A stretch of 64,000 nucleotides of DNA, taken from assembly GCA_963791045.1 (NCBI GenBank), contig CAWBQK010000013.1:160001-224000 (forward strand). The letters run 5' to 3'. The stretch comes from Candidatus Latescibacterota bacterium. Its GTDB lineage: Bacteria; Krumholzibacteriota; Krumholzibacteriia; WVZY01. The notes under the pieces are model-generated. The model made no database searches. It saw only the letters and a program-made list of their open reading frames with translations, and was not told the DNA's origin. Made by a program: the position numbers and the translations under genes. Positions 17,766-40,686 of the stretch are shown piece after piece (position 1 is the stretch's first letter; every line of letters begins with the position of its first letter).

Positions 17766-17914
17766 GCCGACCTCCTGTAACAGTTTCCTCAAGAACGACC
17801 TGGGAACGAGTATACCCGATGTCCAGCGATCCGTGCCCCAGAAAGATCGCGGGCTTTCTTCCGCGTACTTGACAACTTCTTGACCTGTGGTATGTTTTTT
17901 TTGATCGCTACTAA

Positions 17915-17998
17915 CAATGCGGGGTGCTCGCCGATGGGCGCGGGCTGAGAACATACCCTTTGAACCTGATCCGGGTAATGCCGGCGCAGGGACTCAGA
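17915..17998 (+). ncRNA. TPP riboswitch aptamer
   Basis: GGGGTGC...GCTGAGA..ATACCCTTTGAACCTGATCCGGGTAATGCCGGCGCAGGGA directly upstream of thi genes. Confidence 0.95.
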
Positions 17999-18009
17999 AG
18001 CTCTCGGCG

Positions 18010-25484: not shown

Positions 25485-25551
25485 TGTGCCTTACCGAGCC
25501 GACCTGCCAAATAATTGCGGTGCATCCGCCCCAACCAGTGGAGGTCCCACG

Positions 25552-28500
25552 ATGAAACGGATCGTGTTTGTTACGTTGTGTGCACTCGTTGTCCTCGGCG
25601 TGGTGGCGGGTGACACATGGTCAAAAACGACACAGGACGGCAAGCTGTCCGGATATCGTTTCAAAGAGCTTCCGCATGGGGGCGCCAATACACCCGCGTT
25701 TGCGCAGGGGTCTTTGTATCAAGCCGCCGCGGTTGGTTCCACCTTGCTCGGGTGGTGGCAGTTCGATACGGCGGCAGGGCAACCTGATGAGCAGGGGTGG
25801 ACCAAACACGATATCACCGGGCCACCGGATGTGAACTTTCATGTCGACGGATCGGTCGCCGGGGGCGCCGGGTGTTGTCCGATCGTGCCGGTGACCGGCG
25901 TAAAATCGATGTGGTGCGGCGCGTGTCCGAGTGCGGACGAAATCTACTGCGGGTACTCCTCACTGCCCGGCTACGGAAACAGCTGGTATCAATCATTGAT
26001 AACACAGACGCTCGCGTGTACCACGCTTTCACTCACCTATACCGCCGTATGGGATTCCGAGCCGGCCTACGATTTTACGTATGTTCAGTACTGGGATGGA
26101 ACGAGTGAAGCATGGGTTGACCTCCCCGTCGATGGAGGCGCAGGGAAATACGACGGCATCGGCGGCCCACTCGTCGAGAATTTCGTTATCAACCCGCCGG
26201 ACTATTCGACAGTCGTTCGGTTCTTTTTTGTGTCGGATGGGGCGTGGAGTGACGAGGACGGCTTGTGGCCGACAAACGAGGGTGCGTTCAAAGTCGACGA
26301 CATCACACTCGCCTGCACCGATCAGGGATCCGGTTTTTCCTACTCGGAAGACTGGGAGGATGAGGTTTGCGGTCAGAAGGGATCCAACGACGGCGTGTGG
26401 CACTCGGCGAGCACGCCGGGATTTGGGGTTTACGCGGCACTCCGTAACGGTGCGGGGGTTATCCAGGAAGACCCGTGCCGCCGGTTGATCTCAAATTTGT
26501 GGGGTTTCTTCGATGACCCCGTCGTCACCAACTATTCGTGCGGTGGCTGGCCGCTCCAGGGAGCGGTGCCCTACGGCCCCGATGCCAACGGGCTATATAT
26601 GAACAACGAGATATGGTCACCGAAAGTCGACTACGTCGGATCGGGTAACGAGGTGCGGTTTCGGTTCGCATCGTACAGAGATCTCTCCCTCGACGGGCTT
26701 GTGTTCTATGTCTGGCATGTCAGGTCGTGGGTGGCGGACTGCCCTCAGAACTGGGAGGACTACACGTTTGTCTACTACGGCGGGCAGAGAGACTGGTTGT
26801 ATACGACATTCGATATCGGTCCGTTGATTGATGCCGGAGCCACTCATCTTCAACTGGCTCTTGGCGCCGTCGACATGTGCGGTTATTGGTGTGGCATCTA
26901 CGGAACCGGCTCTTGCCACAGTCACGCCCCATTGTTCGACCAGGTTCGCCTCGTTCGTATTGACAACCAGGGACCACAGTGGAACGTGCGGCACATCGAC
27001 ATCTGGCAGGATAACTTCCCCGAGGAAGGTGGTGTCGATCCGGCGACGAGTTATGCGCGCTGCGACATGGCGCAGGATATTTTACCCAACAACAATCCCA
27101 TCCTCCCCGGTGACTCGCTTTCGGTCGGGGTCAACGACCCGGCTGGTTTCGCCGATGACAACACAGGCGGCCGCCCCGGCAAAGCGATCTATGCATTTGT
27201 AAGGGTCACCGATCGGTTTGGCAATGCGAAGGCGGGCAAGTCGGGCCTGGCCATCCAATCCCCCGACGACCAGGCCTACTCCGGCGACCCAAATGCGGGT
27301 CTCGTGAGATACCCATGGGTCGGCAATGTGCTGATCGGCGGAGAGACGTGGAGCCAATACCGGATGGACTACAATTATACATCCTCCGGCGGCCAGGTCA
27401 GCGGTCGTTACAACTGCGACCTGATGGATCTTGGCGCCGGCGCCACAGGCCCACACTACAATCACGCCAACGAGAACACCGCAGCGAACACGGGCGTGTT
27501 CACGCCTGGGGACGTCGTCAATTATTTCCTCGGCGCGCAGAATTCACTCGGTACGTGGAGCTACTGGCACCGCACACTCGACGGGCAGGGCGTCAGCCGC
27601 TCGACACTCAATATCACCGAGGCGGCGGCCGACCCATGCGAGTGGTCGGTTCTCCCCGACGCGGGTCTTCTTGCCGGTGACATTCTCTATGTGGATGATG
27701 CCGACGACCGTGGCGGACCCGCACAACTCTATTTCGACTGGGCGTTCAAGTACCTCAATATCGAAGACGGTGTTGACCGTTTTGATGTGTTGGGTCCTTC
27801 GTCGGCGGTCGGCAACAGTCTCGCATCGCGTGTGAAGGACTTGTCCACGCAGATGATCGGAGATCCCGGAGAGGTTTATCAGAAGGTGCTGTGGAACTCG
27901 AGTGATCTGAGCAGCGGCCTGATGGGGGACGGCGGCTATACGGCTGGCGGGGGCAGCTCTGAAAAATCAAACGACTACGCGTTGTGCGAATACTTCCTCA
28001 CCAACCACCCGGGGAATCCCGGCTGGTATGCGGCGGGCGATGACTTCCCGTCAGACTGGAATCAGTTGACGGGAGCGGCGGCGGTGAACGTCCGCAGCTT
28101 CTATATGAATTACAACCTCGTTGGTTACGATCACAAGTTAGTCGGCGAACCGGTGTCGCCGCTCGTCGTCCGGAGTGGTGACTATCCGATCGGGCCGGCG
28201 GCGATGTACGCATACGGTGGATGTCCGGTACTCAACGACTTCGATGTGATTCAAGCCATCGGCTCATCCAACTACGCGATGGAGTACTCCTCGCAGGGGA
28301 GTGGAAACGGAGCGGTGATTCGCCAGGCCACACCCAACGCGGCGGGTTCGACGGCGCGTTTCGTTCTGTCCGGGTTTGGTTACAACTTTATCCGCGATGA
28401 CGACGTGATCGGCATATGGCCGGACCGGGTGACGCACCTGCGGGACATACTCATCTATTTCCAGAATATCCTGGATGAGCCGATAGGGATCGACCCCGTC

Positions 28501-28788
28501 GCATATGCGAACAGTCTTGACAACGCATATCCGAATCCTTTCAACCCGACAACGACGATCAAGTACTCGATTGCCGAGCGCGGCCACGTGACACTCAAAG
28601 TGTACAATGCCGCGGGGCAACTCGTGCGAACACTTGTCGACGAGATGCAGTCGCCGGCCGCGACGGGGTTGTCGAAAACCTGGCACGGGATGAACGACCA
28701 TGGGCAACCCGTTTCGAGCGGTGTGTACTTCTACAGACTGTCAACCAATAGGTTTACACACACCAAAAAGATGGTGCTGTTGAAGTAA
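25552..28788 (+). CDS. Large secreted Cys/Trp-rich protein with C-terminal T9SS-type/FlgD-Ig sorting domain, paralog 1
   Basis: GGAGG then MKRIVFVTLC signal peptide; WDSEPAYD...FVSDGAWSDEDG (InhA/MAM-like beta-sandwich motif, inferred); CGYWCG..GSCHSHAP; YPNPFNPTTTI...VSSGVYFY...KKMVLLK. Confidence 0.85.
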   Translation: MKRIVFVTLCALVVLGVVAGDTWSKTTQDGKLSGYRFKELPHGGANTPAFAQGSLYQAAAVGSTLLGWWQFDTAAGQPDEQGWTKHDITGPPDVNFHVDGSVAGGAGCCPIVPVTGVKSMWCGACPSADEIYCGYSSLPGYGNSWYQSLITQTLACTTLSLTYTAVWDSEPAYDFTYVQYWDGTSEAWVDLPVDGGAGKYDGIGGPLVENFVINPPDYSTVVRFFFVSDGAWSDEDGLWPTNEGAFKVDDITLACTDQGSGFSYSEDWEDEVCGQKGSNDGVWHSASTPGFGVYAALRNGAGVIQEDPCRRLISNLWGFFDDPVVTNYSCGGWPLQGAVPYGPDANGLYMNNEIWSPKVDYVGSGNEVRFRFASYRDLSLDGLVFYVWHVRSWVADCPQNWEDYTFVYYGGQRDWLYTTFDIGPLIDAGATHLQLALGAVDMCGYWCGIYGTGSCHSHAPLFDQVRLVRIDNQGPQWNVRHIDIWQDNFPEEGGVDPATSYARCDMAQDILPNNNPILPGDSLSVGVNDPAGFADDNTGGRPGKAIYAFVRVTDRFGNAKAGKSGLAIQSPDDQAYSGDPNAGLVRYPWVGNVLIGGETWSQYRMDYNYTSSGGQVSGRYNCDLMDLGAGATGPHYNHANENTAANTGVFTPGDVVNYFLGAQNSLGTWSYWHRTLDGQGVSRSTLNITEAAADPCEWSVLPDAGLLAGDILYVDDADDRGGPAQLYFDWAFKYLNIEDGVDRFDVLGPSSAVGNSLASRVKDLSTQMIGDPGEVYQKVLWNSSDLSSGLMGDGGYTAGGGSSEKSNDYALCEYFLTNHPGNPGWYAAGDDFPSDWNQLTGAAAVNVRSFYMNYNLVGYDHKLVGEPVSPLVVRSGDYPIGPAAMYAYGGCPVLNDFDVIQAIGSSNYAMEYSSQGSGNGAVIRQATPNAAGSTARFVLSGFGYNFIRDDDVIGIWPDRVTHLRDILIYFQNILDEPIGIDPVAYANSLDNAYPNPFNPTTTIKYSIAERGHVTLKVYNAAGQLVRTLVDEMQSPAATGLSKTWHGMNDHGQPVSSGVYFYRLSTNRFTHTKKMVLLK

Positions 28789-28807
28789 CCTTCGTTTGCA
28801 TGACTCT

Positions 28808-28846
28808 AAAAGAAACCGGCGCCGACGCGTGCCGGTTTCTTTTTTT
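28808..28846 (+). terminator. Intrinsic terminator after paralog 1
   Basis: AGAAACCGGCGC...GTGCCGGTTTCT followed by a T-run. Confidence 0.85.
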
Positions 28847-28908
28847 GCATTGAGAAATACGATAACCGGGTATCGATATAAAGTGTAGTGGTTTTTCACG
28901 TTGCACTA

Positions 28909-28937
28909 TTGACGATCAGAAGCCACTTGCCTATATT
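28909..28937 (+). promoter_or_regulatory. sigma70 promoter of leader/paralog 2
   Basis: TTGACG-17-TATATT; both boxes are conserved at 32742-32770 while the spacer diverges. Confidence 0.8.
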
Positions 28938-28939
28938 GT

Positions 28940-29372
28940 AAGTGGCGAGTAATCCAAAACGGGCTTGGGGCTACACGCCGAAGATTCACTTTCCGGCCTG
29001 CCAGTGCATTCAGGAGAGGAGGTGGAATCTCATCGAGGCGCACTGGCTACTGTCTCCTGTTGTCTCATCACCCAGCTCGAGCCGACCAGGCATATCCCCC
29101 ATCAGGTCAGTCTAAATAGACGATGACGCAGGTGCGTTGCATCGTGTCGTCGAAGTGCGGGTAATTTTACCCTCGGAGGTCATCATCGTGTGCGCTGTTC
29201 CCTCAGCACGCGTTGAGGGTAATATGGCGGGGGCCATCTGCAACACATGCAACACGTGTCGCGGCGGACGCCGTTTTATTCCCGTACCGCTTAAGACTGA
29301 TACTTTTCCCTCCTTGTCGGTAGGCCACTTGTGGCTTACCGATTCTCACTTCTGCAACGATGGAGGAACGAC
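28940..29372 (+). ncRNA. Putative large structured 5' leader RNA, copy 1
   Basis: Collinear homolog at 32773-33206 with multiple compensatory base-pair changes; no convincing conserved ORF. Confidence 0.75.
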
Positions 29373-32300
29373 ATGAGGAAATCATTAGTGGTCGCGCTGT
29401 GCATCCTCATCGCCATGTCCAGTTTGGCCATGGCGAAGAAGATGCCGAACAAGCGGGCGGACATGAAGTTCAGGGAGTCAATCCCAATGCCGGCGAATCC
29501 GCCTGAAATTGGCGGTTCCTTGTTCCAGGCAGCCGCGGCAAATACCACGGTTCTCGGATGGTGGCAGTTTGATACGCCCACCGGCCAACCAGACGTACAG
29601 GGTTGGACGGTCGTCGACAAAACTTCCCAGGAAACCGAGTACTTTCACGTCGACGGCGGCATTGGGGGTGGTCCCAACTGTAGCGGGATCACACCAATCA
29701 ACGGATTGAAGTCGATGTGGTGCGGCCAGTACCCGACACTGGCAGCTCCCTGGTGCGGTTGGGGCACGCTGCCCGGCTACGGCAACAACTGGGATCAAAG
29801 TCTCGTTTCCGAGGTCATAAATTGTGACACGCTCACGTGGTCGTGGGTGGCCGTGTGGGATTCGGAGCCCGGCTTTGACTTCACGTACGCCGAATACTAC
29901 GACAACACCACGATGTCGTGGGTAGAATTGAACGTCAATGCCGGAGCGGGTTATTACGACGGATCCGGCGGACCGCTCGGCGAAACCTTCCAGGTACTCA
30001 CGACCGGCGGGTCCACGCAGCTTCGATTCCATCACGTTTCCGACGGCGGCTGGTCCGATGAAGACAGCGGCTGGCCGACAAACGAAGGCGCGTTCAAGGT
30101 CGATGACATTGGCGTAATGGCGACAGGTTTTTCGAACGGCCCCCAGACGTTCGAAACCGAGGCATGTTTGTCCAAAACCTCGGGCGACGGTTTCTGGTCG
30201 GCGCAAGCGGCACCCGACTTCGGAGCTTTTGGCGACCTGTACTCGGCGGCGGCGATTGTACAGGAAGACCCCTGTCTGCGCCCCTTGTCGAACATGTGGG
30301 GATTCTTCGACGATCCCCTGGTAACCAACTACGCGTGCGGCGGGTGGCCGCTTCAGGGCGCCATGCCCTACGGTCCCGATGATAGCGGGTTTTACATGTG
30401 GAACGAGATCTGGTCACCATGGGTGCCGAACACCGGCTCCGGCAGTGACTACCAGATTCAGTTCCTCACCTATCGGGATCTCCCTCTGGACAACCTTCAG
30501 TTCTACATCTGGGAAGTCCGAGGTAAAGGCGCCGACGGTTGTCCGACGCCCTGGGCTACCGATTTCTGGGTCTTCTACGGCGACCAGAAGGACTGGTTCC
30601 CGGAGCTGTTCCAGATCGGCGCGTTCATCCCGCCCGGATCGGTCGAACTCCAGATCGCGATCGGCGCGGTCGACCAGTGCGGCGCGTGGTGTGGCGTGTA
30701 CGGCTCTGGCGCCTGTCACAGTCACGCCCCGATACTCGACCAGATGTACTTCTACAAGGTCGACTTCGTGGGGCCGCAATGGGACGTTCGTGATATCGAC
30801 ACGTTCCAGGACAACTTCCCCGAGAATGGAGAGATTGTCGGGTATGCACGCTGCGACATGCCGCAGGATATATTGCCCGGCACCAACGGGTCGATCCTGC
30901 CAGGCGACTCGTTGCTCGTCCAGGTTGTCGATCCAAACGGAATCGGCACCGACCCGACCGTGGGTGGTCCATCGGTCTACCTGTTCGTAAATGTCACCGA
31001 CAGGCACGGAACTCCGATTGCCGGAAAAAGCGGTCTTGCGATCCAGTCACCGGACAACGTCAGGTACGTCGGCGACCCCAACGCGGGGACGCTGCGATAT
31101 CCGTTTGTCGGGCCCGCATCGGCACCGGCCGGCCTGCCCGCTGGATGGTCGCAGTACAGGATGGATGACGCGTACACCTCGGCAGGTGGCGCGCAGCCGG
31201 ACGCGTACTGCTGCGATCTCATGGATATCGCCAACGGTACTCACGTGAACGAGAACGCGGTGGCCAACGTCGGTGTCTTCGAGCCCGGAGATGTCATCAA
31301 CTACTTCCTCGGGGCGAAGAACTCGTTGGGCCAGTGGAGCTACTTCCACAGAACGTTCGGCGGTCAGGGCAGACAACACACAACGGCCGATATCAATGAG
31401 GCCGTGCAAGGCGCGATGGAGTGGTCTGTTCTCCCCGATGTTGGACGTGAGCCCGGTGACATTGGCGACATCCTCTTTGTGGATGACGCCGACGACCGCG
31501 GCGGGCCCGCTCAGCTTTACTTTGACTGGGCGTTCCAGTACATGGGAATTGAAGATCGCGTCGACCGTTACGATGTGATCGGACCATCCTCGGGCGTGGG
31601 CAACGGCCTCGCCTCGCGTGTTAAGAATGTGTTTACGCAGATCATCGGCGATCCGGTTGAGATCTATCAGAAGATTCTCTGGAACTCGAGCAATCTTTCG
31701 ACAGCTCTGATCGGGGACGGCGGCTCCGCCAACGGAGGAAGCGGATCCGAGAAAACGGATTCCTATAGTCTGCTCTTCACATTCTTGAATCACCACCCGG
31801 ACAACCCGGGCGTCTACACCGCCGGCGACGACATCGCCCAGGAGTGGGTTACGCTGACCGGCGCCGGCGCGGTAAACGTGAAGTCGACGTTCTTGACACA
31901 CTCATTGATAAGCGGCAACCACACGACGACGGGCGAACCGGTGTCACCTCTGACAACCCAGTCTGCGGGTTCGCCGATCGGCCCGGCATCGATGTACGCA
32001 TACGGTGGATGTCCGCTGATCAATGATTTCGATGTGCTCATGCCCACAGGCTCCGCCTTCTATGCGATGGAGTACGAGATTCCCGGGCACGGCGGTGTGA
32101 TCGCACAAGCAACGCCGAATGCCGCCGGAACGACCGCGCGGTATGTCATGTCCGGTTTCGCGTACAACTACATTCGCGATGACGGCATCGGTACCACGGC
32201 ACCCGACCGGGTCACGCACCTTCGCGATATCCTCGTCTGGTTCCAGAACATCATCGACGAGCCAATCGGCATCGATCCGGTGGCGTTCGAGAACCGGCTG

Positions 32301-32573
32301 GACAACGCGTACCCGAACCCGTTCAACCCGACCACGACGATCAAGTACTCGATCGCCGAACGGGCACACGTCACGTTGAATATCTACAACGCGGCGGGGC
32401 AGCTGGTACGCACGCTGGTGGATGAGGCACAGGCACCTAATCCCCAGGGATTCTCGATGGTCTGGAACGGTCTGAGCGACCAGGGGCAGCCGGTTTCAAG
32501 CGGTGTTTATTTCTACAAACTCACCGTATCAAATGGCTTCAGTATGACCAAGAAGATGGTCCTTCTGAAGTAA
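29373..32573 (+). CDS. Large secreted Cys/Trp-rich protein with sorting domain, paralog 2
   Basis: GGAGG then MRKSLVVALC..AMA signal peptide; same motifs as paralog 1. Confidence 0.88.
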   Translation: MRKSLVVALCILIAMSSLAMAKKMPNKRADMKFRESIPMPANPPEIGGSLFQAAAANTTVLGWWQFDTPTGQPDVQGWTVVDKTSQETEYFHVDGGIGGGPNCSGITPINGLKSMWCGQYPTLAAPWCGWGTLPGYGNNWDQSLVSEVINCDTLTWSWVAVWDSEPGFDFTYAEYYDNTTMSWVELNVNAGAGYYDGSGGPLGETFQVLTTGGSTQLRFHHVSDGGWSDEDSGWPTNEGAFKVDDIGVMATGFSNGPQTFETEACLSKTSGDGFWSAQAAPDFGAFGDLYSAAAIVQEDPCLRPLSNMWGFFDDPLVTNYACGGWPLQGAMPYGPDDSGFYMWNEIWSPWVPNTGSGSDYQIQFLTYRDLPLDNLQFYIWEVRGKGADGCPTPWATDFWVFYGDQKDWFPELFQIGAFIPPGSVELQIAIGAVDQCGAWCGVYGSGACHSHAPILDQMYFYKVDFVGPQWDVRDIDTFQDNFPENGEIVGYARCDMPQDILPGTNGSILPGDSLLVQVVDPNGIGTDPTVGGPSVYLFVNVTDRHGTPIAGKSGLAIQSPDNVRYVGDPNAGTLRYPFVGPASAPAGLPAGWSQYRMDDAYTSAGGAQPDAYCCDLMDIANGTHVNENAVANVGVFEPGDVINYFLGAKNSLGQWSYFHRTFGGQGRQHTTADINEAVQGAMEWSVLPDVGREPGDIGDILFVDDADDRGGPAQLYFDWAFQYMGIEDRVDRYDVIGPSSGVGNGLASRVKNVFTQIIGDPVEIYQKILWNSSNLSTALIGDGGSANGGSGSEKTDSYSLLFTFLNHHPDNPGVYTAGDDIAQEWVTLTGAGAVNVKSTFLTHSLISGNHTTTGEPVSPLTTQSAGSPIGPASMYAYGGCPLINDFDVLMPTGSAFYAMEYEIPGHGGVIAQATPNAAGTTARYVMSGFAYNYIRDDGIGTTAPDRVTHLRDILVWFQNIIDEPIGIDPVAFENRLDNAYPNPFNPTTTIKYSIAERAHVTLNIYNAAGQLVRTLVDEAQAPNPQGFSMVWNGLSDQGQPVSSGVYFYKLTVSNGFSMTKKMVLLK

Positions 32574-32600
32574 TGAATACGCGGAAACCATAGGCCCTTA

Positions 32601-32653
32601 CGGGTGCCGCTTTCTAATGGAGTTGAGCCACAAGAAAGCGGCACCCGTTTTTT
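32601..32653 (+). terminator. Intrinsic terminator after paralog 2
   Basis: CGGGTGCCGCTTTCT...AGAAAGCGGCACCCG-T6. Confidence 0.85.
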
Positions 32654-32741
32654 GTGTTTGCCGTCCCGACGGAGCAGCCCGACTCGTCAACTCACCAGTT
32701 TACAATACACATATAGGCGTCTGATTTTCGCTTCCGCGCTA

Positions 32742-32770
32742 TTGACGCTCAACGACCTCTCACCTATACT
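32742..32770 (+). promoter_or_regulatory. sigma70 promoter of leader/paralog 3
   Basis: TTGACG-17-TATACT. Confidence 0.8.
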
Positions 32771-32772
32771 GT

Positions 32773-33206
32773 GAGTGGTGAGTAGCCCAGTAAGGGCATG
32801 GGGCTACAGCCAAACGATTCACCATCCGTCTCGCCAGCGTCATTCGGGAAAGGAGGTGAAAACGAATCAAAGCACGCTGGCAACTTGCTCCTGATTTCTC
32901 ACCGGAAAGCTCTAGCCGACCAAACATATCCGCCAAAAGGTCAGTCTGAATGGACGATGACGCAGATGTAGTACATCGTGTCGTCGGAGTATGGCTAGTT
33001 CTACCCTCGGGGGTTATCATCGTGTGCTTCGTTCCCTCGGCACGCGTTGAGGGTGTTTCGCACCGGGGTGTCTGCAGAATTTGTAAGACGAGTCTCGGCA
33101 GGCGTCGTTCTATATTCATACGTTCAACGACTGACCTTATTCCCTCCTTCTCGGCAAGCCGCTTGTGGCTTGCCGATTCTCACTTCTGCAACGATGGAGG
33201 AACGAT
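32773..33206 (+). ncRNA. Putative large structured 5' leader RNA, copy 2
   Basis: Homolog of 28940-29372 with covarying stems. Confidence 0.75.
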
Positions 33207-36200
33207 ATGAGGAAAACACTTGTGGTTACGCTGTGCATTTTGGTCGCCATGTCCACCCTGACCATGGCGAAGAAAATGCCAAACAAACTCGACAACGCGA
33301 AGTTCCGGGAGGCGATTCTCTCTCCGGCGAATCCGCCTGAAATCGGCGGCTCGATGTTCCACGCCGCGGCCGCAGGTACCACGGTGCTTGGGTGGTGGCA
33401 ATTCGATTCATCTACCGGCCAACCGGACTCAGCGGGGTGGACGGTGGTGGACAAGTATGCCCAGGTGACCGAGTATTTTCACGTCGATGGCAACGCCGGG
33501 GGTGACCCAGCTTGTAACGGGATCACGCCCGTGAACGGTGCAAAGTCGATGTGGTGCGGCCAGTGGCAAACAACCGCCACCCCCTGGTGCAGTTGGGCCA
33601 CTCTTCCCGGCTACGGCAATAGCTGGGAACAACGCCTCGTTTCCGAGGTCATAGACTGCGACACGCTCACATGGGCGTGGACGGCCGTGTGGGACTCCGA
33701 ATCGGGTTATGACTACACGTACGCGGAGTACTACGACAATTTGACAATGTCGTGGTTGGCGCTTCCGATAAACGCCGGAGCAGAGGCTTATGACGGCGTG
33801 GGCGGACCGCTCTCCGAAGCCCATCAGGTCATCACGTCCGGCGGGTCGACACAGCTGCGGTTCCATTTCGTTTCCGACGAAGCCTATTCGGATCAAGACG
33901 GCGGATGGCCGTCCGTTGAAGGCGCGTTCAAGGTTGACGACATTGGCATCGTGGCGACAAACGGTTTCTCGAACGGACCCCAGACGTTCGAAACCGAAAC
34001 CTGTCAGTCCAAATCTTCCGGTGATGGATTCTGGACGGCCCAGTCCGCACCGGGTTATGGTCTCTACGGCGCGCTCCACTCCGCCACGGGGCTCGTCCAG
34101 GAAGACCCCTGCCTGCATCCGTTGTCGAACATGTGGGGGTTCTTCGACGACCCCCTGACAACCAACTATGCGTGCGGCGGGTGGCCGCTTCAGGGCGCCA
34201 TGCCCTACGGTCCCGACGCAAACGACCTTTATATGTGGAACGAGATCTGGTCGCCGTGGGTGCAGAACCAAGGCTCAGGCAGTGACTATCAGATCCAGTT
34301 CCTCTCCTACCGCGACCTCCCCCTGGACAATCTTCAGTTCTACCTCTGGGAAGTCCGCGGCAAGGACGTCAGTGGATGTCCATCGGAATGGGATACCGAC
34401 TGGTGGGTCTGGATGGGCGGCCAGAAGGACTGGATTCGAGGCGTATTCCAGATCGGCGCATTCGTTCCACCGGGATCGGTCGAACTCCAGGTCGCAATCG
34501 GCGCGATCGACATGTGCTATTTGTGGTGCGGCGTCTATGGCACCGGCGCATGCCACAGTCACGCTCCGATTCTCGATCAGATGTACTTTTACCGGGTTGA
34601 TTTCACGGGACCGCAGTGGGACGTTCGCGACATCGAACTCTTCCAGGACAACTTCCCCGAAAATGGCGAAGTTGTCGGATTTGCACGCTGTGACATGCCG
34701 CGGGATATGTTGCCCGGGGACAACGGGACGATCCTTCCCGGCGACTCGCTACTCATCCAGGTGATCGATCCGGATGGAATCGGCACGGATCCGACCGTGG
34801 GTGGCCCTTCGGTCTATCTTTTCGCGAAGGTGACCGACAGGCACGGGACTCCGATTGCCGGAAAGAGCGGTGTTGCGATCCAGTCTCCGGATAACATCCG
34901 GTTTACCGGCGATCCCAATGCGGGGACGCTACGGTATCCGTTTGTCGGACCTGCATCGGCGCCGGCCGGCCTTCCCGCCGGATGGTCGCAGTACCGGATG
35001 GACGACGCATATTCACGGATTGGCGGTCTGCAGCCGGACCAGTACTGCTGCGATCTCATGGACATCGCCAACGGCAACTATGTGAACGAGAACGCGCCGG
35101 CCAACGTCGGGATCTTTACACCGGGGGATGTCATCAACTACTTCCTCGGCGCCAAGAACTCGCTGGGCCAGTGGAGTTACTTCCACAGAACGTATGGCGG
35201 TCAAGGCGCGGCAAACACAACGGCCGATATCAATGAGGCCGTGCAAGGCGCGATGGAGTGGTCGGTACTTCCCGACGCGGGCCGCGAGCCCGGCGATCTC
35301 GGCGACATTCTGTTCGTGGATGATGCCGACGACCGCGGCGGACCGGCCCAGCTCTACTTCGACTGGGCGTTCCGGTACATGGGAATTGAAGATCGCGTCG
35401 ATCGTTTTGATGTCATTGGTCCATCCTCGTCGGTCGGCAACGGCCTGGCGTCGAGGGTAAAAAACGTGTTCGCGCAGATCATCGGCGATCCGGTCGAGAT
35501 CTATCAAAAGATTCTCTGGAACTCGAGCGATCTCAGATCGGGTTTGATCGGAGATGGTGGTACAGCAAACGGCGGGAGCGGGCCCGAGAAAACAGACTCT
35601 TACGACTTGCTCTTCACGTTTCTGAACCACCACCCGGACAACCCGGGCGTCTACGTGGCCGGCGATAATATCGCTGAGGAATGGGCCGGTCTTATCGGCG
35701 CAGGCGCGGTCAATCTCAAGTCGACATTCATGACGCACGCATTGACAAATGGTAGTCATACGGCGGCCGGTGAGCCGGTGTCGCCTCTGACGACCCAGTC
35801 GATCGGCTCCCCGATCGGCCCGGCGTCGATGTATGCGTACGGTGGATGTCCGGTGATCAATGATTTCGATGTGCTCATGCCGACAGGCTCTGCCTTCTAT
35901 GCGATGGAGTACGAGATTCCCGGGCACGGCGGTGTAATCGCGCAGGCGACGCCAAATGCCGCCGAGACGACCGCACGCTATGTCATGTCCGGATTCGCGT
36001 ACAACTACATTCGCGACGACGGGCTCGGCGCTACGATGCCCGACCGTGTCGCGCATTTGAGAGACATCCTCATCTGGTTCCAGAACATCATCGACGATCC
36101 GATCGGCATCGATCCGGTGGCGTTCGAGAACCGGCTGGACAATGCGTACCCGAACCCGTTCAACCCGACGACGACGATCAAGTACTCGATCGCCGAACGG

Positions 36201-36410
36201 GCGCACGTCACGTTGAAGGTTTACAACGCGGCGGGGCAGCTGGTACATACGCTTGTGGATGAAGCACAGGCTCCCAGCGCCGAAGGATTCTCCAAGGGTT
36301 GGAACGGTCTGAACGACAAAGGGCAATCGGTTTCAAGCGGTGTGTATTTCTACAAACTCACCGTATCAAATGGCTTCAGTATGACCAAAAAAATGGTCCT
36401 TCTGAAGTAA
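33207..36410 (+). CDS. Large secreted Cys/Trp-rich protein with sorting domain, paralog 3
   Basis: Closely collinear with paralog 2 at protein and DNA level, extending into the 3' UTR (TAATGAATACGCGGAAACCA). Confidence 0.88.
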   Translation: MRKTLVVTLCILVAMSTLTMAKKMPNKLDNAKFREAILSPANPPEIGGSMFHAAAAGTTVLGWWQFDSSTGQPDSAGWTVVDKYAQVTEYFHVDGNAGGDPACNGITPVNGAKSMWCGQWQTTATPWCSWATLPGYGNSWEQRLVSEVIDCDTLTWAWTAVWDSESGYDYTYAEYYDNLTMSWLALPINAGAEAYDGVGGPLSEAHQVITSGGSTQLRFHFVSDEAYSDQDGGWPSVEGAFKVDDIGIVATNGFSNGPQTFETETCQSKSSGDGFWTAQSAPGYGLYGALHSATGLVQEDPCLHPLSNMWGFFDDPLTTNYACGGWPLQGAMPYGPDANDLYMWNEIWSPWVQNQGSGSDYQIQFLSYRDLPLDNLQFYLWEVRGKDVSGCPSEWDTDWWVWMGGQKDWIRGVFQIGAFVPPGSVELQVAIGAIDMCYLWCGVYGTGACHSHAPILDQMYFYRVDFTGPQWDVRDIELFQDNFPENGEVVGFARCDMPRDMLPGDNGTILPGDSLLIQVIDPDGIGTDPTVGGPSVYLFAKVTDRHGTPIAGKSGVAIQSPDNIRFTGDPNAGTLRYPFVGPASAPAGLPAGWSQYRMDDAYSRIGGLQPDQYCCDLMDIANGNYVNENAPANVGIFTPGDVINYFLGAKNSLGQWSYFHRTYGGQGAANTTADINEAVQGAMEWSVLPDAGREPGDLGDILFVDDADDRGGPAQLYFDWAFRYMGIEDRVDRFDVIGPSSSVGNGLASRVKNVFAQIIGDPVEIYQKILWNSSDLRSGLIGDGGTANGGSGPEKTDSYDLLFTFLNHHPDNPGVYVAGDNIAEEWAGLIGAGAVNLKSTFMTHALTNGSHTAAGEPVSPLTTQSIGSPIGPASMYAYGGCPVINDFDVLMPTGSAFYAMEYEIPGHGGVIAQATPNAAETTARYVMSGFAYNYIRDDGLGATMPDRVAHLRDILIWFQNIIDDPIGIDPVAFENRLDNAYPNPFNPTTTIKYSIAERAHVTLKVYNAAGQLVHTLVDEAQAPSAEGFSKGWNGLNDKGQSVSSGVYFYKLTVSNGFSMTKKMVLLK

Positions 36411-36440
36411 TGAATACGCGGAAACCACAGACCCCTTAAT

Positions 36441-36492
36441 GGGTGCCGCTTTCTCATGAAGTCGAGGCAGGAGAGAGCGGCACCTGTTTTTT
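36441..36492 (+). terminator. Intrinsic terminator after paralog 3
   Basis: GGTGCCGCTTTCTC...GAGAGAGCGGCACC followed by a T-run; homologous to 32601-32653. Confidence 0.8.
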
Positions 36493-36539
36493 TAGTTGTT
36501 TGTGGTGGTTTGCACTCTTTTCGGTGTCCCCGGTTTCGA

Positions 36540-36569
36540 TTGACAAACACCTTAAAAATATGTTATAAT
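36540..36569 (+). promoter_or_regulatory. Consensus sigma70 promoter of paralog 4
   Basis: TTGACA-18-TATAAT with an extended TG. Confidence 0.75.
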
Positions 36570-36621
36570 AACAAGTTACAAAGATTGACAATTCAAGGTC
36601 GCGCAGCGACAGAGGACAATA

Positions 36622-39600
36622 ATGAGATCTCTCCTGAACTCTCTCTCGTGTGTTCTCGTCGCGGTTTGTCTCACTGCAACTCCAGCTCTCGCCAAAAAGA
36701 CACCCGACGAAAACAAACCGGCAATAATAGAACTCCAAAACAGACCCACCCTTCTGTTCGCGCCCGGCGCGCACACGCGCCCGGAATGACGGCAGCTGCC
36801 GTGGATACGACCGTACTCGGGTGGTGGCAATTCGACGATCCTTACTCCGGCGGTTGCGATCCGCAAGGATGGACCAGCACCGATCTCACCGCACAACTTG
36901 CGACCTATTTTCATATCGATGGTAATGCCGCCGAGACCGGATGCAACGGAATCACTCCCGTGAGCGGCGAGAAATCGATGTGGTGCGGCCAGTGGCCCTC
37001 GTCCGCCGATCCGTGGTGTGGATGGACAACCCTCCCTGGTTACGGCAACAACTGGAATCAGCACCTGGTGTCCGACACTTTGACCTGCGATACGCTCACC
37101 TGGACGTGGACCGCCGCGTGGGATACCGAGCCAGGATATGATTATGGTTACGCTGAGTACTGGGACGCATCACTATCACGATGGTCGCGCGTCCCTATCC
37201 TGACTGGTTACGGCAAGTACGAGGGCAGCGGCGGGCCGGCTGTGGATTCGCACGAGATCGTACCGCCCAACGGGTGGACGATCTTGCGGTATCGGTTCAC
37301 ATCGGACAGCGCATGGGATGACGAAGACGGGCTGTGGCCGTCGACGGAGGGCGCTATCAAAGTGGACGATATTACCGTCGCGTGTTCGGGAGGAATCACC
37401 TACCACCACGATTTCGAAGACGACGAATGTGGCAACACTGAAACAGCAGATGATTTCTGGCGTGCAAGAAAACAGGAACCCTTTGGCAACTACGCCCAGC
37501 TCGTTCACGGTACGAGGGTTGTCCAAGAGGACCCGTGCCGTGCGGTGCTTTCATGTTTGTGGGGGTTCTTTGACGATCCCGCTGTGACCAGCTATGCATG
37601 CGGTGGGTGGCCGGCACAGGGGGCTGTTCCCTACCTCAGATGGATCGACGGAGAATGCACGGGAATTAATAACCAGATCTGGTCGCCGTGGGTTCCGGTC
37701 ACAGGGTCGGGATCAGAGTATCGATTGAGTTTTCTTACCTACCGGGATCTTGTCCTTGACGATATGGTTTTCTACACATGGTGGGTGAGAACAAAAGACG
37801 CCAGTGGATGCCCGAGCTCCTGGAAGAATCCCAACTTCGTTTACTACGGGGGACAAAAGGAGTGGTATCGGACGGACTTTTCTATTGGTAGTTTCATTCC
37901 CCCGGACGCCGAGGAGATTCAGATCGCGTTGGGCGCCATTGATAACTACTGCATGTGGGGCATGGATGGGTCGTGCCACAGTCACGCTCCGCTCTTCGGC
38001 CAGGTGAAACTTGTTCGTGTCACCTCAGACGGACCCCAGTGGGTCGTCCGTCATATCGATCTCTGGCAGGACAACTTCCCCGAGGAAGGCGGCGTCGATC
38101 CGGTATCGAGCTTCGCCCGATGCGACATGGCACAGGACATCCTGCCAAGTTACAATGGGAACATCCTTCCCGGCGACTCACTCGTCGTAACTGTGAGCGA
38201 TCCGAACGGACTCGCCGATGACAACTCCGGCGGCCGCCCGGGGAAAGCGGTCTACGTGTTCGTCCGCGTCACCGACGCTACGGAAATGCAAAAGCCGGCA
38301 AAAACGGTACTGGCGATCCAGTCTCCCGATAACCAGGCGTACAGTGGCGATCCCAACGCGGGGCTTCTCCGGTGGCCGCATGTCGGCGCGGCATCGCGCC
38401 GGCAGCGCTGCTGGGATGCAATTCAGGATGGACCAGTGTTTACACCTCAAGCGGCGGCCTGATCGCCGACAAATATCTGCTGCGATCTAATGGATCTTGG
38501 GGTCGGGACCGACGGGCCCCCACTACAACCACGCGAATGAAAATACGGCGGCGCAACACCGGTGTCTTTACACCCGGTGATGTCATCAACTATTTCTTTG
38601 GAGCGCGGAACGCAGAGGGGCAATGGAGCTATTGGCACCGCAAATATCACGGTCAGGGACTGGACAATCGGACATCGAGCATCGACGTGGCTGCAACCGA
38701 TCCATGCGAGTGGTCGGTGCTTCCCGACGCAGGGCTCGAGCCGGGTGACGACGGGGACATCCTCTACGTCGACGATGCCGATGACCGCATGATTATTGAC
38801 GACTGGAAGCTCCGTGGCGACCCAGTCCAGGCACACCTCGACTGGGCGTTCGGGTACATCACTTGGGGCGCGCGTGGATCGTTTCGACATTCTCGGGCCC
38901 TCGTCGATTGTGGGCAACAGCCTCGCCTCGCGTGTGAAGAACGTCTCCAACCAGATGGTCGGCACATCGACCGAGATCTATCAGCAAATCATCTGGAACT
39001 CGAGCAATCTGAGCCGCGGCCTTGTTGGTGACGGAGGACCGGCATATGGGGGGTGCGGGTGACGAGAAATCGGATGACTTTGCGCTCTTTGAAACGTTTC
39101 TCGATACACACCCAAACAACCCCGGCATCTATTTGGCCGGCGACGATGTCGCCGAGGAATGGGCGTCGCTCTTAGGCGCCGCTGCGGTCAGTGTCCGCAG
39201 CACGTACATGGATTTCATTTTCGCCCGCGGAAACCACGTTACTTTTGGTGAACCGATCTCCCCGCTCGTCCGGGCGGGTGTGCCCGGATCTTACGGCGTT
39301 TTTGACGGCGGGCTTCACACGTTCGACTTCTTCGCATATGGCGGATGCCCCGCGATCAACGATTTCGACGTCATGTTCGCCGGTGCGAATTCGAGGGTTG
39401 AGATCACGTACCCCAACGGCTTCCCTACGAGCGGAGCCGTGCTTGCTCAGGCGACACCCAATTCCGCTGGTACAACGGCCCGGTTTGTTCTCGGTGGGTT
39501 TGGTTATGATTTCATCCGTGACGACATCGTCGGCGGGCAACTCGAACGATGCCGGTTCCTTGCCCACGTTCTCACGTGGTTCGGCAACTTATTGCCCATG

Positions 39601-39912
39601 GCCATCGGCATCAATCCGGTCGTCTATGAAAACGCACTCGAGAACGCATATCCCAACCCATTCAATCCAACGACCACGATCGGGTATTCGATCGCGGAGC
39701 GCTCGCACGTGTCGTTGAAGATCTACAATGTTGCTGGGCAGTTGATAAAAACGCTGGTCGATGAGATTCAGTCACCGCGAGCGGAAGAGTCTGCAGAGTG
39801 ACATGGGATGGGACAAGCGATACGGGGCAAGAGGTTTCGAGCGGTGTTTATTTTTACAAGATCACGACGAAAGGATTTTCGAGAGACGAGGAAGATGGTG
39901 CTGCTAAAATAA
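36622..39912 (+). pseudogene. Paralog 4 of the secreted protein family, interrupted by several frameshifts (possibly assembly errors)
   Basis: MRSLLNSLSCVLVAVCLTATPALA signal peptide at 36622; homologous segments in ORFs 36456-38462, 38372-39031, 38796-39062, 39022-39801 and 39798-; ends AAG ATG GTG CTG CTA AAA TAA (KMVLLK*). Confidence 0.8.
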
Positions 39913-40155
39913 GTTTTGTTTTCGAAACGAGCACTCCCTTTCGAGAGGGCCGATGGAGTTCGACGCACGAATTCGGGCGGCGACCCAGGATGCCGGCGGA
40001 TATCCAACAAGGTTGCAACTCGACTGGGCAAGGAGAACACCGTCGGCTCTCTCTTTTCTTGGCGCCGACGGCCCTTTGGCCAAACTGTCCGCCGGAGGCA
40101 CGGGAATTGCCAAAATAGACGATTATGGTGTAGGCTGGATATAGAGGAAAAAACC

Positions 40156-40686
40156 ATGATCCGTCACAATCAAACGACACTATCGCGTAACAGGTCCGTT
40201 AACATCAAGTGGCTTTGGCTCTTTGGAGTCCTCACGCTGGTCCTGTTGGCGTCGTGTACCAGCGCGCCGCGGTATCGCTCGGGCTCAATGGACGCCAGCA
40301 AGGGCAGCGGCGACCGGCAAGAGATCATCCATTATGCAAAATCGTTTCTTGGAACGCCGTACCGCTACGGCGGGACAACCCGGAACGGAGTCGACTGCTC
40401 GGGTCTGGTAACGGCCGTGTACCGGGAGTTCGATATCAGCTTGCCGCGATCTTCAGCCGACCAGAGCCGGGTGGGTGACGGTGTGAACCGGTCGAATCTA
40501 GAGCCGGCGGATCTCGTGTTCTTCAAGACTTCGGGAAGCGGGACGATATCACACGTCGGAATCTATATCGGTGACGGCAAGTTTATCCATGCGTCGACGA
40601 GCGCGCGCAAGGTCAGGATCGATTACCTCGACGACGACTATTTCAGACGCCGTTTCAGAGCCGCCCGCCGCGTAGTCTCGAGTTGA
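40156..40686 (+). CDS. NlpC/P60 (C40) lipoprotein peptidase
   Basis: LASC lipobox; LGTPYRYGG, DCSGL, DLVFF, HVGIYIG..FIHAS. Confidence 0.93.
   Translation: MIRHNQTTLSRNRSVNIKWLWLFGVLTLVLLASCTSAPRYRSGSMDASKGSGDRQEIIHYAKSFLGTPYRYGGTTRNGVDCSGLVTAVYREFDISLPRSSADQSRVGDGVNRSNLEPADLVFFKTSGSGTISHVGIYIGDGKFIHASTSARKVRIDYLDDDYFRRRFRAARRVVSS

What the first reader, a model, noticed from the sequence alone, without database searches (positions are those of the whole stretch)
28940..33206. Duplicated ~430-nt structured leader RNA with extensive compensatory changes (28940-29372 and 32773-33206)
Seen: two long intergenic regions align end to end, from a conserved promoter to the ATG. Their differences repeatedly preserve pairing: (a) GCCAGTGC/GCACTGGC (29000-07/29040-47) becomes GCCAGCGT/ACGCTGGC (32833-40/32874-81); (b) GGTGC-gtt-GCATC becomes GATGT-agt-ACATC inside a GACGA..TCGTC stem; (c) GTGCGGG/CCCGTAC becomes GTATGG/TCATAC; (d) TCGGTAGGCCAC/GTGGCTTACCGA (29317-42) becomes TCGGCAAGCCGC/GTGGCTTGCCGA (33151-76); (e) a long-range stem TCAGTCT/AGACTGA (29107-13/29294-300) corresponds to AAGGTCAGTC/GACTGACCTT (32937-46/33129-38) and closes a ~180-nt multibranch domain. 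Candidate pseudoknots or alternative pairings: loop CAGGAGA (29011-17) with TCTCCTG (29053-59), and CGTGTGC with the GCACGCG of the CCCTC..GAGGG hairpin. Inference: a large cis-regulatory RNA under structural selection that controls giant secreted proteins. I do not recognise it as a T-box, cobalamin, c-di-GMP or other known riboswitch.
Basis: partly seen in the sequence, partly recalled or inferred. Interest (0 to 1): 0.9.

Follow-up and report, generated by a model that had tools for sequence, protein, structure and literature searches.

The report
New structured leader RNA family
Two ~430-base untranslated leaders in front of twin secreted-protein genes belong to a previously undescribed family of structured mRNA leaders that hides the real ribosome-binding site and displays a much stronger decoy site far upstream.

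Summary
Two ~430-nt leaders (28944-29372, 32777-33206) align end to end: 322 of 427 positions are identical, against 279 of 441 four-fold sites in their genes. Each starts at a near-consensus sigma-70 promoter. Neither shows a coding signal or any Rfam match.

They are not an isolated pair. About 49 related leaders precede orthologues of one type IX secretion (T9SS)-sorted protein family, in one order of Latescibacterota-like genomes. A covariance model of the fuller form hit 30 of 35 genomes in that order and 0 of 115 elsewhere in the class.

Shared parts:
- a G-run motif at the 5' end
- a hairpin with unrelated, covarying stems, whose loop carries an 8-12-nt exact complement of the 16S rRNA 3' tail
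- a sense-only GCCGACC box
- a helix predicted to pair the weak true Shine-Dalgarno (SD) site

The ~190-nt multibranch domain is an insertion found only in this genome's two copies and one ~92%-identical relative. It rests on those sequences alone.

Metatranscriptome contigs begin near the predicted transcription start and run through the leader into the gene.

Best reading: a translational or mRNA-stability leader with a 30S-docking decoy SD and a sequestered SD. The effector is unknown, and a riboswitch is not shown.

The parts
28909..28937 (+). Promoter of copy A: TTGACG, 17-nt spacer, TATATT. Predicted transcription start is about 28944.
   Evidence: 10 of 12 consensus matches. Conserved in copy B and in the G012 orthologue L012. 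RNA-library contigs start at about 28935-28959.
28944..29372 (+). Leader A (5' UTR of gene 2)
28961..28974 (+). 5' G-run motif GGGCTTGGGGCTAC, counterpart of GGGGCAAAGGG(TTAT) in the other leaders
   Evidence: A possible pairing of GGGGC with GCC..CC of the GCCGACC box was predicted, but it is invariant and so untested.
29000..29047 (+). Decoy-SD hairpin. Stem is 29000-29007 with 29040-29047. The loop holds AGGAGGTG (29017-29024), an exact complement of the 16S 3' tail.
   Evidence: The stem is kept through changes in copy B and in the RNA-contig relative.
29053..29059 (+). TCTCCTG, a candidate partner of the loop (pseudoknot), comparable to GCCTCT in the other leaders. Unresolved.
   Evidence: Read. 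Only 5 of 7 pairs are kept in copy B.
29081..29087 (+). GCCGACC box
   Evidence: 41 sense and 0 antisense occurrences in 33 long leaders. Also found in the short leaders of other paralogues.
29107..29300 (+). Multibranch insertion specific to this lineage, closed by TCAGTCT/AGACTGA.
   Evidence: Absent from related leaders. Supported only by copies A and B and partial data from one ~92%-identical relative.
29306..29315 (+). TTCCCTCCTT, an anti-SD element that resembles the 16S tail
   Evidence: Invariant between the two copies. It pairs with the SD in the fold of copy B.
29317..29342 (+). Hairpin d (TCGGTAGGCCA..TGGCTTACCGA)
   Evidence: one compensatory change and two one-sided changes. T29321C with A29338G in the relative.
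29343..29375 (+). Translation initiation region: TTCTC..CTGCAAC loop, SD GGAGG at 29362-29366, ATG at 29373
   Evidence: The SD is predicted to be paired (unpaired probability 0.07 in A, 0.00 in B). The CAGCAAC/CTGCAAC block is conserved across the family.
29373..32573 (+). Gene 2: 1066-aa protein with a signal peptide and a T9SS C-terminal sorting domain
32742..32770 (+). Promoter of copy B: TTGACG, 17-nt spacer, TATACT
32777..33206 (+). Leader B. Its parts are: decoy-SD hairpin 32833-32881 with loop GAAAGGAGGTGA at 32848-32859; GCCGACC at 32915-32921; insertion at 32937-33138; anti-SD at 33140-33149; hairpin d at 33151-33176; SD at 33196-33200.
33207..36410 (+). Gene 3: 1067-aa paralogue, 82% amino-acid identity to gene 2

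Best explanation
WHAT IT IS. The two stretches are diverged copies of a long 5' untranslated leader, transcribed from its own strong promoter together with the gene behind it. They belong to an undescribed family of structured leaders. That family precedes one subfamily of T9SS-sorted ~1060-aa proteins in one order of Latescibacterota-like bacteria. I put this part at about 0.85.

HOW IT MOST LIKELY WORKS (inferred, about 0.4).
- The true Shine-Dalgarno site is weak. It is held in a conserved helix with a pyrimidine anti-SD element (UUCCCUCCUU / UUCUC here; UUCCUUCUC in relatives). Translation therefore starts poorly by default.
- Far upstream, a hairpin loop displays an 8-12-nt perfect complement of the 16S rRNA 3' tail with no usable start codon behind it.
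- This loop docks a 30S subunit. That could act as a standby site that feeds the closed initiation region, as a shield that stabilises the long mRNA, or as both. The loop could also compete with the true SD for the anti-SD element.
- The sense-only GCCGACC box, shared with short-leader paralogues, is probably a site for an unidentified trans-acting factor.

The 190-nt multibranch insertion adds a lineage-specific module of unknown role.
For: SHOWN: selection on the leader
- Identity is 322 of 427 in the leader against 279 of 441 at four-fold sites (Fisher p = 1.3e-4).
- A relative ~92% identical overall shows 12 listed differences in 29077-29372. Its coding contigs differ at 127 of 1481 and 278 of 3303 positions (the list of differences may be incomplete).

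SHOWN: transcription
- An RNA-library contig of 3337 nt aligns to 28968-32270 from its position 34. A second aligns from 28968 at its position 12.
- Two of the three RNA runs have zero depth over 28761-28921, the terminator-promoter gap.

SHOWN: a family
- Leaders with the same ordered motifs stand before 22 of 28 assessable best-hit genes in other genomes, and before 10 of 60 lower-ranked paralogues.
- Covariance model R2, built from 30 group-I 5' domains, found 7 group-II leaders that were not used to build it.
- R2 hit 11 of 12 and 19 of 23 genomes in the order's two families, and 0 of 115 in the rest of the class.

SHOWN: the decoy hairpin
- 26 of 49 leaders have a perfect 8-bp stem around the motif, against 4.7 expected after shuffling the flanks.
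- These stems use six unrelated arm sequences.
- The loop matches the genome's own 16S tail over 8 or more nt in 37 of 49 leaders, against 1 of 52 control upstream regions. The true SD matches over 0-6 nt.

SHOWN: SD pairing
- Median unpaired probability is 0.17 in 33 leaders against 0.24 in 55 other paralogues (p = 0.004; relatives are not independent).
- Both window copies fold with the SD paired (z = -2.6 and -4.4).

SHOWN: GCCGACC box
- 41 sense and 0 antisense in long leaders; 15 against 1 in positions -100..0 of other paralogues.
- Not enriched in intergenic DNA across the genome.

ESTABLISHED KNOWLEDGE: a distal SD-like element that stabilises mRNA by binding the 30S subunit is described for cry3Aa (STAB-SD; passages read in PMC12970973).
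Against: - No experiment bears on function. 30S docking, standby action and stabilisation are all inferred.
- The local hairpin energies are no better than shuffles (z = +0.5 and +0.3). Support for the hairpin is comparative only.
- 23 of 49 leaders lack a perfect 8-bp stem; they have bulged stems or none was found. 12 of 49 have a decoy match under 8 nt, as in the GGGAGATGA variants.
- RNase J, the enzyme blocked in the STAB-SD model, was not found above its cut-off in this 81%-complete genome. RNase E/G is present.
- The relative carries T29351A inside the anti-SD stretch CTTCT.
- The RNA contigs come from one study and are assemblies. They cannot fix a 5' end, and DNA carry-over is not excluded.
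- The two-sequence consensus fold conflicts with the family-supported hairpin in the 29000-29047 region.
Confidence: 0.45

Rival explanations
1. It is a riboswitch. A small molecule binds a conserved aptamer: the 5' domain in the fuller leaders, or the multibranch insertion in the window copies. Binding shifts the anti-SD element between the decoy and the true SD.
For: - Covarying helices interleave with invariant unpaired blocks in the 5' domain: 8 of 25 predicted pairs show compensatory change.
- An SD-sequestering platform is predicted.
- The family shows the order-wide conservation typical of orphan riboswitch candidates.
Against: - The window copies lack the 5' domain altogether, yet they keep the decoy, the GCCGACC box and the initiation-region helix.
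- The insertion is known from only 2-3 sequences.
- The genes give no metabolic clue: the protein family is uncharacterised, with only a weak InhA-like MAM lead.
- No Rfam aptamer matches, even at E up to 10.
Confidence: 0.15
2. It is a protein-controlled leader. An RNA-binding protein recognises the GCCGACC box and other invariant blocks and sets translation or decay for the whole gene family. The protein could be a dedicated regulator or the secreted protein's own product, as recalled for the Thermus S-layer gene slpA (recalled, not checked here).
For: - The GCCGACC box is strictly sense-oriented (41 against 0).
- It recurs at -20 to -60 in the short leaders of other paralogues.
- Invariant blocks such as GGACUAGGGGCAAAGGG and CAGCAAC are more conserved than a helix would require.
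Against: - No candidate protein has been identified.
- CsrA is not found in the genome (81% complete).
- The box could instead pair within the RNA: GGGGC with GCC..CC was predicted, and L120 carries GGTCGGTCGG downstream.
- This reading can coexist with the best explanation rather than replace it.
Confidence: 0.2
3. It is the by-product of a recent tandem duplication: spacer DNA that has not yet diverged and has no function of its own.
For: The leader lies inside a 3.83-kb duplicated unit. Its identity (75%) falls between that of third and first codon positions.
Against: - The leader is more conserved than four-fold sites (p = 1.3e-4).
- In the ~92% relative, about 4% of leader positions differ (12 listed in 296 nt; the list may be incomplete), against about 8.5% in the coding contigs.
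- Homologous leaders occur in other genera and families.
- All 38 differing columns that fall within the RNAalifold consensus pairs keep the pair.
Confidence: 0.03
4. It is a separate small RNA gene, or a leader usually ended by attenuation, so that the leader accumulates on its own.
For: - In run X1, contigs cover 28959-29334 but little of the gene, at low depth of 3-5.
- A weak terminator-like hairpin lies at 29261-29274 in copy A.
Against: - That hairpin is not kept in copy B (read).
- No canonical terminator stands before the ATG.
- Contigs of 1508 and 3337 nt join the leader to the gene.
- X1 is flagged as probably DNA.
Confidence: 0.07

Closest known systems
STAB-SD element of the Bacillus thuringiensis cry3Aa leader (Agaisse and Lereclus 1996; passages citing it read in PMC12970973)
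   Same: Both have a Shine-Dalgarno-like sequence far upstream of the start codon, inside a long 5' UTR of a highly expressed exported or accumulated protein. It is not used for initiation and is proposed to bind the 30S subunit.
   Different: - Here the element sits in the loop of a conserved, covarying hairpin.
- Its complementarity to the 16S tail extends to 8-12 nt.
- It is combined with a sequestered weak true SD, a GCCGACC box and further domains.
- The host is not a Firmicute, and RNase J was not found above its cut-off.
- No stabilising effect has been measured.
Ribosome standby sites and SD-sequestering expression platforms (tisB standby model, RNA thermometers, translational riboswitches; recalled, not checked here)
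   Same: A closed initiation region is paired with an accessible upstream ribosome-binding region. An anti-SD element can choose between two partners.
   Different: Known standby sites are unstructured stretches, not perfect SD sequences displayed in a hairpin loop 100-350 nt upstream. No trigger (temperature, ligand or sRNA) has been identified here.
Long stabilising 5' UTRs of surface and S-layer protein mRNAs, and the ompA 5' UTR (recalled, not checked here)
   Same: A long structured leader precedes an abundant envelope or secreted protein and is driven by a strong promoter.
   Different: Those leaders rely mainly on a 5'-terminal hairpin. No sequence or Rfam relationship was found.

Membership tests
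Any Rfam 15 family | Covariance-model match at the gathering score | tested here: not met
   Whole window: only a TPP riboswitch at 17910-18009. Leaders at E up to 10: nothing inside them. Seventeen related loci: one tRNA only. Four group-I leaders at E up to 10: two chance-level hits.
STAB-SD-type 5' stabiliser | An SD-like sequence in the 5' UTR, far from the start codon, with no start codon at working distance | tested here: met
   An 8-12-nt match to the 16S tail complement lies at -104 to -359 in 37 of 49 leaders. No conserved ORF or 3-base periodicity. The ATG in the GGAGGTGATG variants lies 2 nt after the core (read).
STAB-SD-type 5' stabiliser | The element lies close to the 5' end of the mature transcript | tested here: inconclusive
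   The element is about 73 nt from the predicted start in the window copies and about 150-200 nt in group I. Processing sites are unknown.
STAB-SD-type 5' stabiliser | The host has the 5'-3' exonuclease RNase J, which a bound 30S subunit blocks | tested here: not met
   The best TIGR00649 match scores 24 bits against a cut-off of 400. The genome is 81% complete. RNase E/G is present.
STAB-SD-type 5' stabiliser | The element lengthens mRNA half-life | not testable with these tools
   This needs a decay assay.
Riboswitch | A conserved aptamer with covarying helices and invariant junction nucleotides | tested here: inconclusive
   The group-I/II 5' domain fits this description, but the window copies lack it. 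Their insertion domain rests on 2-3 sequences.
Riboswitch | Specific ligand binding that changes the fold | not testable with these tools
   This needs in-line probing or SHAPE with ligands.
Riboswitch | An expression platform that controls the SD or a terminator | tested here: met
   The SD is predicted to be paired. No conserved intrinsic terminator.
CsrA/RsmA-controlled leader | A CsrA protein encoded in the genome | tested here: not met
   PF02599 gave no match in the own genome, which is 81% complete. The same search hit 3 control genomes.
Leader-peptide attenuator | A conserved short ORF with its own start codon in the leader | tested here: not met
   Stop-free segments differ between the two copies, and the 109 mismatches show no phase bias. 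The weak Thr/Leu-leader hits at 28730-28845 fall on the terminator of gene 1.

The most novel reading that the evidence does not exclude
The hairpin loop is a dedicated docking site for the 16S rRNA 3' tail. A structured leader would capture a 30S subunit 100-350 nt upstream and hand it to a weak, closed start site. This would be a bacterial counterpart of internal or standby ribosome recruitment. It could make output of a whole secreted-protein family depend on the pool of free ribosomes, with the GCCGACC box marking the family's mRNAs for a still unknown factor.
Probability: 0.2. Interest if true: 0.8.

Novelty: new variant of a known kind. Interest (0 to 1): 0.66.

Why it matters
Structured mRNA leaders from uncultured phyla are almost unexplored. 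This one is large and conserved across an order, and it is tied to the most expanded secreted-protein family of these genomes (up to 12 or more paralogues scored per genome).

Its architecture is unusual. The best ribosome-binding sequence of the mRNA lies in a distant hairpin loop, while the true site is weak and paired. That gives a concrete, testable case of long-range ribosome recruitment or mRNA shielding outside the Firmicutes.

It also supplies a ready covariance model and a sequence box (GCCGACC) for finding the regulator. If the 5' domain or the insertion binds a ligand, this would be a new riboswitch class.

Tried and rejected
SEARCHES THAT GAVE NOTHING USEFUL
- The search for related loci on genome contigs with a whole-protein alignment keyed on the C-terminal sorting domain. 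It returned 77 unrelated T9SS proteins.
- The search for related loci on metagenome contigs with the first 900 aa returned one locus with no upstream DNA. More close relatives of the window copies could therefore not be fetched.
- blastn of leader A over 60 relatives: no hit.
- nhmmer with the two-copy profile saw only the last ~35 nt in other loci.
- Notes of earlier scans: nothing.

MODELS AND ALIGNMENTS THAT DID NOT UNIFY THE GROUPS
- Covariance model R1 of the decoy-hairpin module, built from group I only, recovered just L015 convincingly. It did not unify the groups.
- MAFFT did not keep the hairpin arms of different groups in register. No column-wise covariation count across groups was possible, so arm pairs were scored per sequence instead.
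- An automatic column-pair helix finder was confounded by misalignment of the variable hairpins.

WEAK OR INCONSISTENT TESTS
- Constrained local folding with shuffled flanks gave only a weak signal: mean z = -1.3, with 14 of 41 below -2.
- Pairing of the loop with downstream GCCUCU/UCUCCUG (pseudoknot): the variants do not covary consistently (read). Left open.
- A neutral baseline from the spacers upstream of the promoters is invalid. Those spacers derive from different genes' 3' flanks.

ALTERNATIVES REJECTED
- A coding explanation, an ORF on the opposite strand (119 aa in copy B only) and a mobile-element origin (no other copies).

PROTEIN FUNCTION
- PDB profile search: sorting domain only.
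- Atlas: a weak InhA-like MAM lead at 0.90.

RNA RUNS
- Parts of the window without contig cover (32625-33400 in all four runs) say nothing about copy B.

NOT USED
- No structure prediction or complex prediction was run.

Full report
1. THE OBSERVATION

The window holds four tandem paralogous genes for ~1060-aa proteins. Each has a signal peptide and a T9SS C-terminal sorting domain (PF18962 / FlgD_ig). They are gene 1 (about 25555-28788), gene 2 (29373-32573), gene 3 (33207-36410) and gene 4 (from about 36636, split over several frames).

The two spacers align from promoter to ATG. Identity from the predicted start to the ATG is 322 of 427. Each begins just after a near-consensus promoter: TTGACG-17-TATATT at 28909-28937 and TTGACG-17-TATACT at 32742-32770. 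The assembly holds no further copy.

2. IS IT MORE THAN A YOUNG DUPLICATION?

- Genes 2 and 3 are 82% identical in protein. Their four-fold degenerate sites are 279 of 441 identical. The leader is more conserved than that (Fisher p = 1.3e-4).
- The 109 mismatches show no three-base phase, and stop-free stretches differ between the copies. No coding signal explains the conservation.
- I could not obtain a cleaner neutral baseline. The DNA upstream of the two promoters derives from different 3' flanks and is not homologous.

3. COMPENSATORY CHANGES BETWEEN THE TWO COPIES

- With a structure predicted from copy A alone, 6 pairs change on both sides and stay paired. Slid partners give 0-2, and shuffles give 2.9 +/- 1.2. 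Several helices of that fold fail in copy B.
- The RNAalifold consensus has 114 pairs with none broken. Eleven change on both sides and 16 on one side, against 0-2 double changes when slid. That structure was selected using covariation, so the figure is generous.
Stem e varies on one side only.
- CGTGTGC/GCACGCG is nested, not a pseudoknot, and is invariant.

4. RELATIVES

Protein searches place the genes in Candidatus Latescibacterota/Krumholzibacteria-like genomes. They show a hugely expanded family: 47 of 61 related genomes have a match, and up to 12 or more paralogues are scored per genome.

blastn and nhmmer with the window leader found nothing beyond the last ~35 nt. Reading the upstream regions of the best protein hits changed the picture. 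Most carry a promoter 280-410 nt before the ATG and the same ordered motifs:
- GGGGCAAAGGG near the 5' end (GGGCTTGGGGCTAC in the window)
- GCCGACC
- a hairpin with GGAGGTG(A) in its loop
- CAGCAAC followed by the SD

Such leaders stand before 22 of 28 assessable best-hit genes. One further locus was cut by a contig end. They also stand before 10 of 60 lower-ranked paralogues that I fetched.

Three forms are apparent:
- Group I: 30 sequences, one per genome across both families of the order, including the window's own genome at contig 10.
- Group II: 10 sequences, in one family.
- Group III: the window copies, the orthologues in G010/G012, and a few others.

5. DISTRIBUTION

- blastn with a group-I leader over 208 genomes of the phylum hit 10 of 12 and 19 of 23 genomes of the order's two families. 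It gave one chance-level hit among 172 others.
- Covariance model R2, built from the 30 group-I 5' domains, recovered 7 group-II leaders that were not used to build it (E 1e-7 to 2e-3). It recovered none of the window copies.
- In 151 genomes of the class, R2 hit 11 of 12 and 19 of 23 genomes of the two families and 0 of 115 in the other seven families.
- These genomes are samples and many are incomplete, so the family was 'not found' rather than shown absent elsewhere.
- Rfam has no matching family.
- Full-text searches for Latescibacter* with riboswitch, structured RNA or type IX secretion returned nothing relevant (listings only).

6. ANATOMY

The group-I alignment shows the following:
- invariant blocks (GGACUAGGGGCAAAGGGUUAU, GCCGACCACCGUUGG, ACCCGAC, UUUCGCGUAUUCAC, UUCCUUCUCAGCAACGAUGGGGGAAUACG)
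- hairpins between them whose sequences differ completely between clades, for example UUUGCGG/CCGCAAA against UCGGGGUGG/CCACCCGA
- 8 of 25 RNAalifold pairs with compensatory changes

The window copies lack this 5' domain. They share the 5' G-run, the decoy hairpin, a CU-rich stretch, GCCGACC, CUAAAU and the initiation-region helix.

Compared with the nearest leader (L013), the window copies carry a ~190-nt insertion (29107-29300; 32937-33138) between CUGAAU and the last hairpin. No other genome searched has it.

7. THE DECOY HAIRPIN

- In 26 of 49 leaders a perfect 8-bp stem (G.U allowed) brackets the motif within a loop of 36 nt or less. Shuffling the flanks gives 4.7 expected.
- The arms fall into six unrelated sequences: CUGAAACG, GCCAG(U/C)G(C/U), GGUGCCCG, CCUGGGGC, UUUUCCGA and CCGGCCGU. 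The other leaders have bulged stems, or none was found.
- The genome's own 16S rRNA ends in GGAUCACCUCCUUUCU.
- The loop is an exact complement of that tail over 8 or more nt in 37 of 49 leaders (12 nt in copy B, 8 in copy A). Only 1 of 52 control upstream regions reaches that.
- The true SD next to the AUG matches over only 0-6 nt.
- No usable start codon follows the loop. Where ATG occurs (GGAGGTGATG) it lies 2 nt after the core and forms part of the 16S complement.

8. THE INITIATION REGION

- The SD is predicted to be mostly paired: median unpaired probability is 0.17 in 33 leaders against 0.24 in 55 other paralogues (Mann-Whitney p = 0.004; relatives are not independent).
- In copy B, CCUCC of the invariant UUCCCUCCUU pairs with GGAGG around hairpin d (z = -4.4). 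In copy A, UUCUC pairs with the SD (z = -2.6).

9. THE GCCGACC BOX

- It occurs 41 times in sense and never in antisense across 33 long leaders.
- In paralogues with short leaders it sits between the promoter and the SD: 15 sense against 1 antisense in positions -100..0 of 55 regions.
- It is not enriched in intergenic DNA of the genome (0.11 against 0.15 per kb in coding DNA).
- It may be a recognition site. Alternatively it may pair with the 5' GGGGC, as predicted, but both partners are invariant, so this is untested.

10. RNA EVIDENCE

Three marine-sediment metatranscriptome runs from one study hold contigs ~92% identical to the window.
- One contig of 3337 nt aligns to 28968-32270 from its position 34. 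One of 1508 nt aligns from 28968 at its position 12.
- A fourth run, flagged as probably DNA, has a contig that starts at 28959.
- Two of the three RNA runs have no depth over 28761-28921.

This fits a start near 28944 and a single leader-plus-gene transcript. But contigs cannot fix ends, and DNA carry-over is not excluded.

The relative's listed differences in 29077-29372 number 12, about 4%. Its coding contigs differ by about 8.5%. The list may be incomplete.
- Differences that keep or improve stems: an inserted T after 29006 with G29040A (GCCAGUGU/ACACUGGC), T29321C with A29338G, T29285C, and T29301C.
- One difference against: T29351A falls in the anti-SD stretch.

11. MECHANISM

Shown:
- a transcribed, selected, structured leader family
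- a distal perfect SD in a conserved hairpin loop
- a weak, paired true SD
- a strand-specific box

Inferred:
- The loop docks 30S subunits, as standby site, mRNA shield or both.
- The loop and the true SD compete for the anti-SD element.
- The GCCGACC box binds an unknown factor.

The closest described precedent is STAB-SD of cry3Aa (passages). However, RNase J was not found here, RNase E/G is present, and CsrA is not found. The genome is 81% complete.

Ligand sensing, protein control and attenuation remain open rivals. Neutral duplication is contradicted.

12. VERDICT

Its conserved core, however, is the decoy-SD hairpin, the GCCGACC box and the SD-sequestering helix. The multibranch domain is a local insertion supported by very few sequences.

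Noticed in passing
window 17910-18009 (+): TPP riboswitch: 63.1 bits against a gathering score of 54.3. It lies upstream of the + strand ORF 18092-19234.
   Followed up: no
window about 36636-40686 (+): The fourth paralogue is split over at least four overlapping frames (36456-38462, 38372-39031, 39022-39801, 39916-40686), and the genome search reports an internal TGA. It is either a decaying gene or contains assembly errors. It has a short leader with its own promoter and no GCCGACC box.
   Followed up: partly
window 32574-32660 and 36411-36500: The 3' flanks of genes 2 and 3 are strongly conserved: the stop codon, TGAATACGCGGAAACCA, and the terminator hairpin. Homology ends abruptly after the terminator. 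This may be a conserved 3' UTR element.
   Followed up: no
G000 contig 10, 71533-71888 (-) (locus L190): The window's own genome carries one full group-I leader, with the 5' domain that the window copies lack, before another paralogue. Every genome of the order that matched had exactly one strong group-I hit.
   Followed up: partly
loci L140, L146, L148, L166, L139, L162, L169, L160, L032; window 25513-25519 before gene 1: Paralogues without the long leader carry one or two sense GCCGACC boxes between a TATAAT-type -10 element and the SD, often directly abutting the SD.
   Followed up: partly
window 28959-29334: In run X1 (soil; labelled metatranscriptomic but flagged as probably DNA), contigs nearly identical to the window cover the leader but only small pieces of the gene. 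If the run is RNA, the leader may accumulate on its own. Depth is only 3-5.
   Followed up: no
loci L029-L191 (group-I leaders): Group-I promoters have an extended -10 element (TTGACA, about 14 nt, TRTGGTAnnnT) that is conserved across both families.
   Followed up: no
locus L121, about 700-760: The G010 paralogue leader has its own small inserted hairpin (UUCCCUCU..AGAGGGAA) just before CAGCAAC. The initiation-region helix therefore seems to be a hot spot for lineage-specific insertions.
   Followed up: no
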